64,000 bases of DNA from a virus (IMGVR_UViG_3300045988_156524); one strand, 5' to 3'; shown: positions 62,031 through 62,359, numbered from the stretch's first letter. Notes: generated from the letters alone by a model not told the origin. Program-made: numbers and translations.

Positions 62031-62104
62031 GGTAAGGGTACTTCGTAGGGATTCGAACCCTCTGCCAAGCACGGCGATCTCCGACGTCGCAAAATACCCT
62101 TACC
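62031..62104 (-). other. tRNA-like fragment: perfect T-arm inside a 10-bp inverted repeat, no complete cloverleaf
   Basis: GGTAAGGGTA ... TACCCTTACC flanking AGGG-TTCGAAT-CCCT; no acceptor pairing found. Confidence 0.35.
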
Positions 62105-62112
62105 TGTTGTGT

Positions 62113-62188
62113 TGGTGCCGGTTAACGGACTCGAACCGCTGACATCCTGCTTACAAGGCAGGCACTCTACCAACTGAGCTAAACCGGC
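62113..62188 (-). tRNA. tRNA-Thr (TGT) (76 nt, CCA encoded)
   Basis: Acceptor GCCGGTT/AACCGGC, anticodon stem CCTGC/GCAGG, loop CTTGTAA, T-loop TTCGAGT. Confidence 0.85.
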
Positions 62189-62192
62189 AATT

Positions 62193-62279
62193 TGGTGGGG
62201 AGTGATGGAGTCGAACCACCCGAGTCGCAATGACAGTAGATTTACAGTCTCCCCCGCTACCTCTACGGACTAACTCCCC
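62193..62279 (-). tRNA. tRNA-Tyr-like (GTA), type II with long variable arm (87 nt, CCA encoded)
   Basis: Acceptor GGGGAGT/ACTCCCC, anticodon loop CTGTAAA as in E. coli tRNA-Tyr, long variable arm, T-loop TTCGACT; one mismatch in anticodon stem. Confidence 0.65.
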
Positions 62280-62284
62280 TAAAT

Positions 62285-62359
62285 TGGCGATGGTGGGTGG
62301 ATTCGAACCACCGACCAGTTGGTTAACAGCCAACTGCTCTACCGCTGAGCTACACCATC
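62285..62359 (-). tRNA. tRNA-Asn (GTT) (75 nt, CCA encoded)
   Basis: Acceptor GATGGTG/CACCATC, anticodon stem GTTGG/CCAAC, loop CTGTTAA, T-loop TTCGAAT. Confidence 0.85.

What the first reader, a model, noticed from the sequence alone, without database searches (positions are those of the whole stretch)
62031..62359. Clustered tRNA genes (Thr, Tyr-like, Asn) plus a tRNA-like fragment, with an Ile2-type tRNA upstream of ban
Three tightly packed minus-strand tRNAs with encoded CCA ends, and a fourth with a CAT anticodon at 60234-60309. I remember P1 as having Asn, Thr and Ile tRNAs; the Tyr-like gene (long variable arm, anticodon loop CTGTAAA) is one I do not recall, and the fragment at 62031-62104 looks like a remnant of another. 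Phage tRNAs often compensate codon usage or replace host tRNAs cleaved by anticodon nucleases.
Basis: partly seen in the sequence, partly recalled or inferred. Interest (0 to 1): 0.45.

Follow-up and report, generated by a model that had tools for sequence, protein, structure and literature searches.

The report
Variable tRNA array of P1-like phage
Four genuine tRNA genes of a P1-like phage-plasmid, including a tyrosine tRNA that reference P1 lacks but hundreds of relatives carry and annotate, so the tRNAs are ordinary; the "fragment" beside them is a conserved structured RNA, and 370 bases upstream lies an undescribed RNA complementary to the host's ribosome-rescue RNA.

Summary
Four minus-strand tRNA genes with encoded CCA are present: Asn(GUU), Tyr(GUA), Thr(UGU), and a CAU tRNA of Ile2 type upstream of ban. 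Reference P1 has Asn and Thr 2 nt apart and no Tyr. The same Asn-Tyr-Thr block is already annotated in Punavirus Ro157c2YLVW and in RefSeq P1-like plasmids with a sequence identical to the window. 244 PLSDB plasmids carry it. The Tyr gene belongs to a phage tRNA-Tyr family (76/87 identical to T5's functional tRNA-Tyr). In this lineage it has a G·A mismatch in the anticodon stem. The array is combinatorial among relatives (Asn or Arg; ±Tyr; Thr; ±Ser; Ile2). Codon usage fits Ile2 and Thr but not Tyr, so Tyr fits tRNA supplementation against tRNA-depleting defences (inference). The "fragment" is not a decaying remnant. Its 15-bp stem covaries around an invariant core, and it is one of four long-stem modules here. 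Verdict for the finding: real, already known, low interest. Separately, at 62823-62647 (also in P1 and 761 phage records), an unannotated RNA pairs with host tmRNA nt 68-106. It carries its own start-codon-less 10-codon tag (ANDDLMMVAA) under coding-type constraint. This deserves follow-up.

The parts
62285..62359 (-). tRNA-Asn (GUU), first gene of the cluster, CCA encoded
   Evidence: ARAGORN; Rfam tRNA 75.5 bits; homologous to P1 trnA
62193..62279 (-). tRNA-Tyr (GUA), class II (long variable arm), A73, CCA encoded; G·A mismatch at the second pair of the anticodon stem
   Evidence: ARAGORN; Rfam 35.1 bits (GA 29); identical sequence annotated tRNA-Tyr by PGAP; 85/87 identical to Ro157c2YLVW, 81/87 to CC31, 76/87 to T5 tRNA-Tyr
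62113..62188 (-). tRNA-Thr (UGU), CCA encoded
   Evidence: ARAGORN; Rfam 72.5 bits; homologous to P1 trnT
60233..60308 (-). tRNA with CAU anticodon, Ile2 (ileX) type, just upstream of ban (58588-59958)
   Evidence: ARAGORN; Rfam 64.7 bits; P1 homologue annotated tRNA-Ile2, 89% identical to ileX; PGAP tRNA-Ile
62025..62110 (-).
   Evidence: fold z = -5.0; 8 of 15 stem pairs show changes on both sides, 95.7% of cells paired vs 37-52% when partners are slid; found in 100+ viral contigs
61789..61888 (-). Long-stem module M2 (about 22-bp stem, interior with GGGGUCAUAUCCC hairpin)
   Evidence: fold -47.4 kcal/mol, z = -6.1; conserved in P1, D6, Ro157c2, CMS-2020a
61531..61609 (-). Long-stem module M3 (GGUAAGAGCAUUC.../...GAAUGCUCUUUCC; interior GGGUUCAUAUCCC)
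   Evidence: fold -35 kcal/mol, z = -5.9; interior replaced in D6 and CMS-2020a while the flanks are kept
62562..62643 (-). Long-stem module M0 upstream of tRNA-Asn (GGUAAGGGCGCUG.../...CAGCGUCCUUACC)
   Evidence: fold -45.7 kcal/mol, z = -5.3; commonest interior class
61414..61534 (-). Partial STnc100/PasD-like sRNA segment at the 3' end of the non-coding array
   Evidence: Rfam STnc100 38.3 bits, below GA 47, E = 2.6e-6; a full STnc100 (109.7 bits) follows an M1-type module in L089
62647..62823 (-). Unannotated 'tag RNA' (outside the finding). It has a 5' domain 62823-62787 complementary to host tmRNA nt 68-106, a 10-codon ORF 62764-62732 (ANDDLMMVAA*) with no start codon, a stop-codon hairpin, and a hairpin 62718-62696 whose loop pairs with 62688-62684 (pseudoknot)
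63018..63045 (.). Bivalent C1 operator (Op72-type) overlapping promoter Pban, upstream of the whole RNA array on the same strand
   Evidence: exact operator match at 63029-63045(-) plus a 2-mismatch partner; 95% identical to the annotated P1 Pban/Oban region
62833..62852 (-). Intrinsic-terminator-like hairpin at the end of the region P1 annotates as 'dicF-like' (about 62816-62918)
   Evidence: P1 annotation, mapped through alignment A5

Best explanation
This is the tRNA array of a P1-like phage-plasmid. It lies in the roughly 2.8-kb, mostly non-coding leader of the C1-repressed ban operon, in this order: Pban, dicF-like region, tag RNA, M0, tRNA-Asn, tRNA-Tyr, tRNA-Thr, M1, M2, M3, STnc100-like segment, two small genes, tRNA-Ile2, ban. 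All four tRNAs are functional-looking genes. Because they sit behind Pban, they should be made when C1 repression is lifted (inferred from the P1 annotation, not shown here). The array is a known, combinatorially variable cassette in this phage family, and the window carries the Asn-Tyr-Thr...Ile2 version. Ile2(CAU) and Thr(UGU) most likely top up tRNAs for AUA and ACA, which the phage uses 2.5x and 1.8x more than E. coli. The phage does not over-use Tyr codons, so tRNA-Tyr (and possibly tRNA-Asn) most likely acts as a spare supply when host defences deplete that tRNA, as shown for the homologous T5 tRNA-Tyr against retron-Eco7 (inference for this phage). The 'fragment' is a maintained long-stem RNA module with a tRNA-like interior. 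Most likely it is a processing or punctuation element, or a stable RNA scaffold, within the polycistronic RNA (inferred).
For: The genes are real. The same array is annotated in relatives. Identical Tyr sequences occur in two RefSeq plasmids, and 244 PLSDB plasmids carry Tyr in this context. Array variants among 60 P1-type loci: Asn>Thr>Ile2 35; Asn>Tyr>Thr>Ile2 7; Asn>Thr>Ser>Ile2 7; Arg>Thr>Ser>Ile2 4; Arg>Tyr>Thr>Ser>Ile2 2. N4-like phages have Asn, a class II tRNA (Ser) and Thr with the same spacing at 77% identity, so P1's two-gene form looks like a precise loss of the middle slot. The Tyr family shows compensatory changes at the pair that is G·A here: U-A in other P1-likes, C-G in CC31 and T5. 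T5's tRNA-Tyr is functional and rescues phage from retron-Eco7 (annotation; PMC11555353). Codon usage per 1000, window vs E. coli: ATA 11.1 vs 4.4, ACA 12.8 vs 7.1, Tyr codons 30.6 vs 28.4. The Pban operator is present. The modules are stable (z = -5 to -6), M1's stem covaries, the same stem carries 49 interior classes, and one interior is a hammerhead-like core. T5's tRNA region is likewise annotated with tRNA-like stable RNAs.
Against: The window's tRNA-Tyr has a G·A mismatch in the anticodon stem that most relatives lack. Its Rfam score is only 6 bits above threshold, and one T4-like homologue was labelled tRNA-Pseudo by its depositors. The anticodon loops of Tyr, Asn and Thr are the standard ones, so any protection would come from quantity rather than nuclease resistance. 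No expression, charging or processing data were available. The simple promoter scan finds no promoter inside 60150-63150, and a terminator-like hairpin lies between Pban and the tRNAs, so read-through or unrecognised promoters must be assumed. The E. coli codon frequencies used are from memory.
Confidence: 0.72

Rival explanations
1. All four tRNAs serve only codon-usage compensation for phage late genes.
For: The phage over-uses ATA (2.5x) and ACA (1.8x). Relatives carry Arg(UCU) and Ser(UGA) in the same array, matching over-used AGA (2.7x) and TCA (1.6x).
Against: Tyr codons are not over-used (30.6 vs 28.4 per 1000) and Asn only slightly (45.2 vs 39.3). Tyr is present in only about a quarter of related plasmids, which fits an accessory trait better than a general need.
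Confidence: 0.25
2. In this lineage the Tyr gene is a crippled passenger: the G·A mismatch in the anticodon stem has inactivated it, and it persists only because it sits between two useful genes.
For: The mismatch disrupts a pair that is kept by compensatory change across the family. The variant is in a minority (the window plus two RefSeq plasmids among those inspected).
Against: Everything else is intact (acceptor stem, T arm, variable arm, A73, CCA). A single internal G·A in a 5-bp stem is often tolerated (general knowledge). tRNAscan-based PGAP still calls it tRNA-Tyr.
Confidence: 0.2
3. The 'fragment' is a decaying tRNA pseudogene left by deletion of an anticodon arm.
For: It has a perfect T-arm consensus and a 7-bp acceptor-like helix next to it. 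Its length equals a tRNA minus about 17 nt.
Against: It is 98.9% identical in 16 P1-type phage records and 86% identical in an Uetakevirus. Its interior is invariant, while 8 of 15 stem pairs changed on both sides and stayed paired. The stem extends far beyond an acceptor stem and is shared with modules that have unrelated interiors.
Confidence: 0.07
4. The long-stem modules are DNA-level features: inverted repeats that act as recombination or cassette boundaries for swapping tRNA and sRNA cargo between phages, not RNA elements.
For: Differences between relatives are whole-interior replacements between conserved flanks (ACAACAGGUAAG ... CUUACCGUUGUG). tRNA-Ser in D6 and CMS-2020a appears or disappears next to modules.
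Against: G·U pairs are common and are kept in one orientation in the stem (U·G 14 of 17 at one pair), which indicates RNA pairing on the transcribed strand. All modules lie on the tRNA strand. One cargo is a ribozyme-like core.
Confidence: 0.2

Closest known systems
Bacteriophage P1 tRNA genes trnA (Asn), trnT (Thr), trnI (Ile2) in the ban operon leader (NC_005856)
   Same: Same position, strand and flanks. The Asn, Thr and Ile2 genes are homologous, and the region is about 95% identical including the Pban/Op72 operator.
   Different: P1 has Asn and Thr 2 nt apart with no Tyr. P1 has tciABC where the window has an SPFH lipoprotein and a small membrane protein.
Annotated Asn-Tyr-Thr arrays of Punavirus vB_EcoM-Ro157c2YLVW and RefSeq P1-like plasmids (e.g. 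NZ_CP158428, NZ_CP149562)
   Same: Same three genes in the same order. The Tyr sequence is identical in the two plasmids, G·A mismatch included.
   Different: Ro157c2YLVW has U-A instead of G·A and a different interior in module M1.
Phage T5 tRNA-Tyr, which overcomes retron-Eco7 (PtuAB) depletion of host tRNA-Tyr (PMC11555353)
   Same: Homologous gene, 76/87 identical, with the 3' half (variable arm, T arm) identical. Phage-borne, and located in a tRNA-rich region that also holds tRNA-like stable RNAs.
   Different: T5 is virulent and drives the gene from a very strong promoter. Here the gene sits in a repressor-controlled operon of a temperate phage-plasmid, and an anti-defence role is untested.
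N4-like phage Asn-Ser-Thr tRNA block
   Same: Same three-slot layout with 4-6 nt spacers, a class II tRNA in the middle, and 77% identity over 252 bp.
   Different: The middle gene is Ser(UGA), not Tyr, and the flanking context is unrelated.
tRNA-like stable RNAs of unknown function in phage tRNA clusters (T5 RNA1/RNA2/RNA3 as annotated; T4 species 1 and 2 RNAs, from memory)
   Same: Structured, T-arm-bearing non-tRNA RNAs interspersed with tRNA genes on the same strand.
   Different: No sequence similarity was established. The P1-type modules are defined by a shared long closing stem with interchangeable interiors.
tmRNA (SsrA), and the tag-less tmRNA of mycobacteriophage DS6A that inhibits host tmRNA (PMC11915505) - relevant to the neighbouring tag RNA only
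   Same: GCN resume codon without a start codon, a 10-residue AND...AA-type tag, the stop codon in a hairpin loop, and a pseudoknot right after. There is a precedent for a phage carrying a partial tmRNA that interferes with the host's.
   Different: No tRNA-like domain is detected, and Rfam tmRNA models stay below threshold (24 bits vs GA 47). It has a 5' domain antisense to host tmRNA, which no tmRNA has.

Membership tests
tRNA (Rfam RF00005), applied to the Tyr candidate | Cloverleaf scoring at or above the curated threshold | tested here: met
   35.1 bits vs gathering score 29; ARAGORN calls tRNA-Tyr(gta)
tRNA-Tyr, bacterial class II | Anticodon GUA in a 7-nt loop, long variable arm, discriminator A73, 3' CCA | tested here: met
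   Loop CUGUAAA, 13-nt insertion at the variable region...CCCC-A-CCA 3' end; that these are TyrRS identity elements is from general knowledge
tRNA-Tyr, bacterial class II | All helices intact | tested here: inconclusive
   One G·A mismatch at the second anticodon-stem pair; relatives have U-A or C-G there
tRNA-Tyr, bacterial class II | Aminoacylation with tyrosine and use in translation | not testable with these tools
   Only indirect: the T5 homologue is functional
tRNA-Ile2 (lysidine-modified CAU tRNA, ileX type) | CAU anticodon on an ileX-like, non-initiator, non-elongator-Met body | tested here: met
   The P1 homologue is annotated 89% identical to ileX; PGAP labels the window-type gene tRNA-Ile; ARAGORN can only say Met(cat)
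tRNA gene or tRNA pseudogene, applied to the fragment 62031-62104 | Recognisable cloverleaf including an anticodon arm, or neutral decay if a pseudogene | tested here: not met
   No tRNA or tmRNA hit even at E <= 10; no anticodon arm; conserved with a covarying stem
tmRNA (RF00023 and permuted forms), applied to 62647-62823 | tRNA-like domain: acceptor stem with G3·U70, T arm, 3' CCA | tested here: not met
   ARAGORN finds no tmRNA in the window or in 8 related loci; Rfam tmRNA_permuted 24.1 bits and beta_tmRNA 14-19 bits, below GA
tmRNA, applied to 62647-62823 | mRNA-like domain: Ala resume codon without a start codon, short tag ending in hydrophobic-Ala-Ala, stop codon in a hairpin, flanking pseudoknot | tested here: met
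   33 nucleotide versions in 186 loci all stop at codon 11; 14 of 22 single-step changes are synonymous (p = 4e-5); stop-hairpin and pseudoknot covariation
trans-acting antisense RNA, applied to 62787-62823 | Extended complementarity to a defined target, conserved across homologues | tested here: met
   All 55 unique 5' domains align best to the reverse complement of E. coli tmRNA nt 68-106, score 31-44 vs 16 +/- 2.6 for shuffles; host beats self in 76 of 76. Actual pairing in vivo is not testable here

The most novel reading that the evidence does not exclude
The tRNA genes and the tRNA-like 'fragment' belong to a translation-manipulating RNA island whose centrepiece is an undescribed phage RNA (window 62823-62647; also in P1, P7, lambdoid prophages, Felixounavirus, Kuttervirus, N4-like and Klebsiella phages). 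In this reading, its 5' end base-pairs with host tmRNA across the 3' strand of pseudoknot 1, the resume codon and the first five tag codons. It then offers its own resume codon and 10-codon tag, so that host tmRNA-SmpB would tag stalled proteins with a phage-specified peptide, or would simply be blocked. The long-stem modules, including the fragment, would be the processing punctuation that releases this RNA, the tRNAs and the sRNAs from one transcript.
Probability: 0.4. Interest if true: 0.9.

Novelty: already known. Interest (0 to 1): 0.3.

Why it matters
For the finding itself, very little is new. It documents that this element carries the Asn-Tyr-Thr...Ile2 version of a known, modular tRNA array. 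It also shows that the Tyr slot is an accessory trait (about a quarter of related plasmids) homologous to the T5 tRNA-Tyr, which defeats a retron. That gives a concrete, testable reason why temperate phage-plasmids keep it. Two by-products matter more. First, the P1 'upl' and 'plp' ORFs lie antisense to a chain of conserved structured RNA modules and are probably not genes. Second, the operon leader of one of the best-studied phages contains an unannotated RNA with a tmRNA-type tag template and an antisense domain aimed at host tmRNA. If confirmed, this would be a new way for viruses to interfere with or reprogram ribosome rescue.

Tried and rejected
1. Y-RNA/YrlA-like reading of the fragment: no Rfam hit at E <= 10.
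2. Canonical or permuted tmRNA: ARAGORN is negative in the window and 8 relatives, and Rfam tmRNA models stay sub-threshold. The T arm lies 3' in the module, next to the closing stem, which is the standard rather than the permuted topology.
3. The fragment as an alanine-accepting minihelix: the third pair is U·G, not G·U, and there is no conserved CCA after the stem.
4. The tag RNA's 5' domain as a self-hairpin with its own tag region: rejected, since complementarity to host tmRNA exceeds self-complementarity in 76 of 76 sequences.
5. RNAduplex on long pieces gave high background for one of three sequences (6 of 60 shuffles as good), so local alignment against the reverse complement was used instead.
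6. The tag RNA's single-sequence fold is not unusually stable (z = -0.9); its support comes from covariation, not energy.
7. Hammerhead among module interiors: nothing at gathering score, only a 24.7-bit sub-threshold hit with an intact core.
8. The P1 genome paper (PMC523184) is not held, so what is said here about P1 expression rests on the GenBank annotation and general knowledge.
9. Ten literature searches found no description of the tag RNA or of its peptide sequences. The library excludes most subscription journals.
11. Protein tools were not used, because no protein is in question.

Full report
OBSERVATION. ARAGORN finds four tRNA genes in the 64-kb window, all on the minus strand: CAU 60233-60308, Thr(UGU) 62113-62188, Tyr(GUA) 62193-62279 and Asn(GUU) 62285-62359. 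Rfam's tRNA model exceeds its gathering score (29 bits) for all four: 64.7, 72.5, 35.1 and 75.5 bits. All four have an encoded CCA. The 'fragment' 62031-62104 is exactly a hairpin with a 15-bp stem and a perfect T-arm consensus. It folds at -40.2 kcal/mol (z = -5.0; 0 of 200 shuffles as stable). No tRNA or tmRNA model recognises it, even at E <= 10.

CONTEXT. The window is a P1-like phage-plasmid. The 6 kb around the finding is 98.8% identical to E. coli plasmids of 92-97 kb and about 95% identical to P1 over the non-coding part. The bivalent C1 operator and Pban lie at 63018-63045 (P1 annotation). On the minus strand downstream come, in order:
- the region P1 annotates as dicF-like, ending in a terminator-like hairpin;
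- about 450 nt of non-coding sequence;
- Asn, Tyr and Thr;
- about 700 nt without any minus-strand ORF;
- a 78-aa membrane protein and an SPFH lipoprotein, where P1 has tciABC;
- the CAU tRNA and then ban.
The CAU tRNA is of Ile2 type. P1's homologue is annotated 89% identical to ileX, and PGAP labels it tRNA-Ile.

THE TYR GENE. The gene is nevertheless not new:
- Punavirus Ro157c2YLVW annotates Asn-Tyr-Thr.
- PGAP annotates tRNA-Tyr in P1-like plasmids, two of which have a Tyr sequence identical to the window.
- 244 PLSDB plasmids carry it in this junction, out of about 1020 with some match to the cluster region.
The gene belongs to a widespread phage tRNA-Tyr family, with 1525 phage records matching. 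It is 85/87 identical to Ro157c2YLVW, 81/87 to T4-like CC31, 76/87 to T5 and 64/85 to E. coli tyrT (the last from my memory of that sequence). The window and the two identical plasmids have G·A at the second anticodon-stem pair. Other P1-likes have U-A there, and CC31 and T5 have C-G. The pair is therefore selected in the family and broken in this sub-lineage. T5's gene is functional (annotation) and rescues T5-like phages from retron-Eco7, whose PtuAB effector depletes host tRNA-Tyr (PMC11555353).

THE ARRAY IS MODULAR. The arrays among 60 P1-type loci are:
- Asn>Thr>Ile2: 35
- Asn>Tyr>Thr>Ile2: 7 (the window type)
- Asn>Thr>Ser(UGA)>Ile2: 7
- Arg(UCU)>Thr>Ser>Ile2: 4
- Arg>Tyr>Thr>Ser>Ile2: 2
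- a few others.
N4-like phages have Asn, Ser and Thr with the same spacing, at 77% identity over 252 bp. The three-slot block with a class II tRNA in the middle is thus an old shared cassette, and reference P1 is the version lacking the middle slot.

LIKELY FUNCTION. In 56 long ORFs of the window, codon frequencies per 1000 versus E. coli K-12 (values from memory) are:
- ATA 11.1 vs 4.4
- ACA 12.8 vs 7.1
- AGA 5.7 vs 2.1
- TCA 11.6 vs 7.2
- Tyr codons 30.6 vs 28.4
- Asn codons 45.2 vs 39.3.
Codon supply explains Ile2 and Thr, and Arg and Ser in relatives, but not Tyr. With its standard anticodon loop, patchy distribution and homology to T5's anti-retron tRNA, tRNA-Tyr is best read as spare supply against tRNA-Tyr depletion. 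That is an inference for this phage. The G·A mismatch leaves a real possibility that this copy is impaired.

THE FRAGMENT. It is 98.9% identical in 16 P1-type phage records, and an 86% homologue sits in a non-coding region of Uetakevirus BUCT554. A pattern scan found it in at least 100 viral contigs, some of which are not P1-like. In an alignment of 17 distinct versions the interior is invariant, while 8 of the 15 stem pairs changed on both sides. Overall 95.7% of cells are paired versus 37-52% when partners are slid, and 0 of 500 shuffles reach the covariation score. It is therefore a maintained RNA structure, not a decaying tRNA.

The window holds four such long-stem modules, each with z = -5 to -6: M0 62562-62643, M1 62025-62110, M2 61789-61888 and M3 61531-61609. 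They share the flanks ACAAC-GGUAAG... / ...CUUACC-GUUG, and the motif AACAGGTAAG occurs 13 times in the window versus 3 expected. Relatives differ by whole-interior replacement. Across 230 fetched loci, 423 modules with this stem carry 49 interior classes. Six classes have a T-loop-like motif, and one is a hammerhead-like core (24.7 bits, below GA 34, with an intact CUGACGAG...GAAAC...GUC). In L089 a full STnc100 sRNA follows such a module, and the window has a partial STnc100-like segment after M3. STnc100 and PasD are known prophage sRNAs (bioRxiv 10.64898/2026.05.13.724894). I infer that the modules are processing punctuation or scaffolds in a polycistronic RNA. T5's tRNA region is likewise annotated with tRNA-like stable RNAs of unknown function. 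P1's 'upl' and 'plp' ORFs lie antisense to these modules, and plp overlaps trnT. PGAP does not call them, so they are probably not genes.

SIDE FINDING, OUTSIDE THE GIVEN COORDINATES. Following the module led to 62823-62647(-), which is 99% identical to P1 over that stretch.

(a) Tag reading frame. The stretch 62764-62732 reads GCA AAC GAU GAU CUG AUG AUG GUA GCG GCC UAA, which encodes ANDDLMMVAA. It has no in-frame start codon and resembles the tmRNA tag ANDENYALAA. Rfam gives only weak tmRNA hits. Homologues carry ANDDVVLMAA, ANEEMYLAVA, ANDEQFLAVA, ANDDLMLMAA, ANDNTFLAVA and others. All 33 nucleotide versions in 186 loci stop at codon 11. Of 22 single-step differences, 14 are synonymous where 22.5% is expected (p = 4e-5), and 16 of 22 fall at third codon positions. 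A Kuttervirus uses GCU AAU for the first two codons.

(b) Structure. The stop codon sits in a covarying hairpin. The next hairpin's loop pairs downstream, with all 4 pseudoknot pairs changed on both sides and 100% paired. A further hairpin presents an invariant loop, GUGUGAUUAAUAA, on at least six different stems.

(c) Antisense domain. The 5' domain is antisense to E. coli tmRNA nt 68-106, that is, the 3' strand of PK1, the resume codon at nt 90 and tag codons 1-5. All 55 unique 5' domains map there, with scores of 31-44 versus 16 +/- 2.6 for shuffles (maximum 30). GUUUUCGUC is the exact complement of host GACGAAAAC. Complementarity to the host exceeds complementarity to the RNA's own tag region in 76 of 76 sequences.

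(d) Independent transcription. In Felixounavirus HY02 the RNA has its own TTGACA-17-TATAGT promoter inside the tRNA cluster.

(e) Distribution. It occurs in 761 phage records of several families, unannotated, in 137 E. coli chromosomes and in a few other Enterobacterales. No tRNA-like domain is detectable. Ten literature searches found nothing on it. The nearest precedent is the tag-less tmRNA of mycobacteriophage DS6A, which inhibits host tmRNA (PMC11915505). The most economical hypothesis is that the RNA docks on host tmRNA and blocks or replaces its tag template. This is untested.

VERDICT. The finding is real, correctly described and already known. The Tyr gene is a documented accessory member of a modular P1-family tRNA array. 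Interest for the finding is low (0.3). The fragment is a conserved structured module, which is of modest interest. The neighbouring tmRNA-directed tag RNA is the item that merits a separate, high-priority follow-up.

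Noticed in passing
window 62647-62823 (-); tag ORF 62732-62764; 5' domain 62787-62823: Unannotated RNA, also present in P1. It has a 10-codon tmRNA-like tag (ANDDLMMVAA*) with no start codon, kept in frame in 186 loci with mostly synonymous variation. It also has a stop-codon hairpin, a covarying pseudoknot, and a 5' domain antisense to host tmRNA nt 68-106. It occurs in 761 phage records (Punavirus, lambdoid, Felixounavirus, Kuttervirus, N4-like and others). No paper was found.
   Followed up: yes
window 61435-61764 (+) and 61765-62142 (+); L001 3159-3728: The P1 genes 'upl' and 'plp' correspond to plus-strand ORFs lying antisense to the conserved RNA modules, and plp overlaps tRNA-Thr. 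PGAP does not call them in RefSeq relatives, so they are probably annotation artefacts.
   Followed up: partly
window 61414-61534 (-); L089 4677-4888: Partial match to the prophage sRNA family STnc100 (38.3 bits, GA 47) right after module M3. A full-length STnc100 (109.7 bits) follows an M1-type module in a viral contig.
   Followed up: partly
L148 7921-7967 (-): One interior of a GGUAAG...CUUACC long-stem module, just downstream of a tag RNA, has an intact hammerhead type I core (Rfam 24.7 bits, below GA 34, E = 7.6e-4).
   Followed up: partly
window 60336-61380 (-): An SPFH-domain lipoprotein (275 aa) and a 78-aa membrane protein occupy the place of P1's tciA/tciB/tciC between the RNA array and tRNA-Ile2.
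   Followed up: partly
window 23239-23308 (-): Full-length RNA-OUT (97.3 bits), i.e. an IS10-type element inserted in this P1-like genome.
   Followed up: no
L004 1506-1755; L236 129-2431: N4-like phages share the Asn, class II tRNA, Thr block at 77% identity. In Felixounavirus HY02 the tag RNA sits between tRNA-Ile and tRNA-Arg inside a 13-tRNA cluster, so these RNAs travel together across unrelated phage families.
   Followed up: partly
window 11524, 28939, 29023, 46663, 52428, 63018, 63029: Seven matches (0-2 mismatches) to the P1 C1 operator consensus ATTGCTCTAATAAATTT, versus 0.02 expected. This fits a P1-type immunity circuit across the window.
   Followed up: no
L237 260-2270 (Kuttervirus Maynard): A roughly 2-kb non-coding region holds the tag RNA plus several T-arm-like motifs (e.g. 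GUCGGUUCGAAUCCGAC), but ARAGORN finds no tRNA genes there.
   Followed up: no
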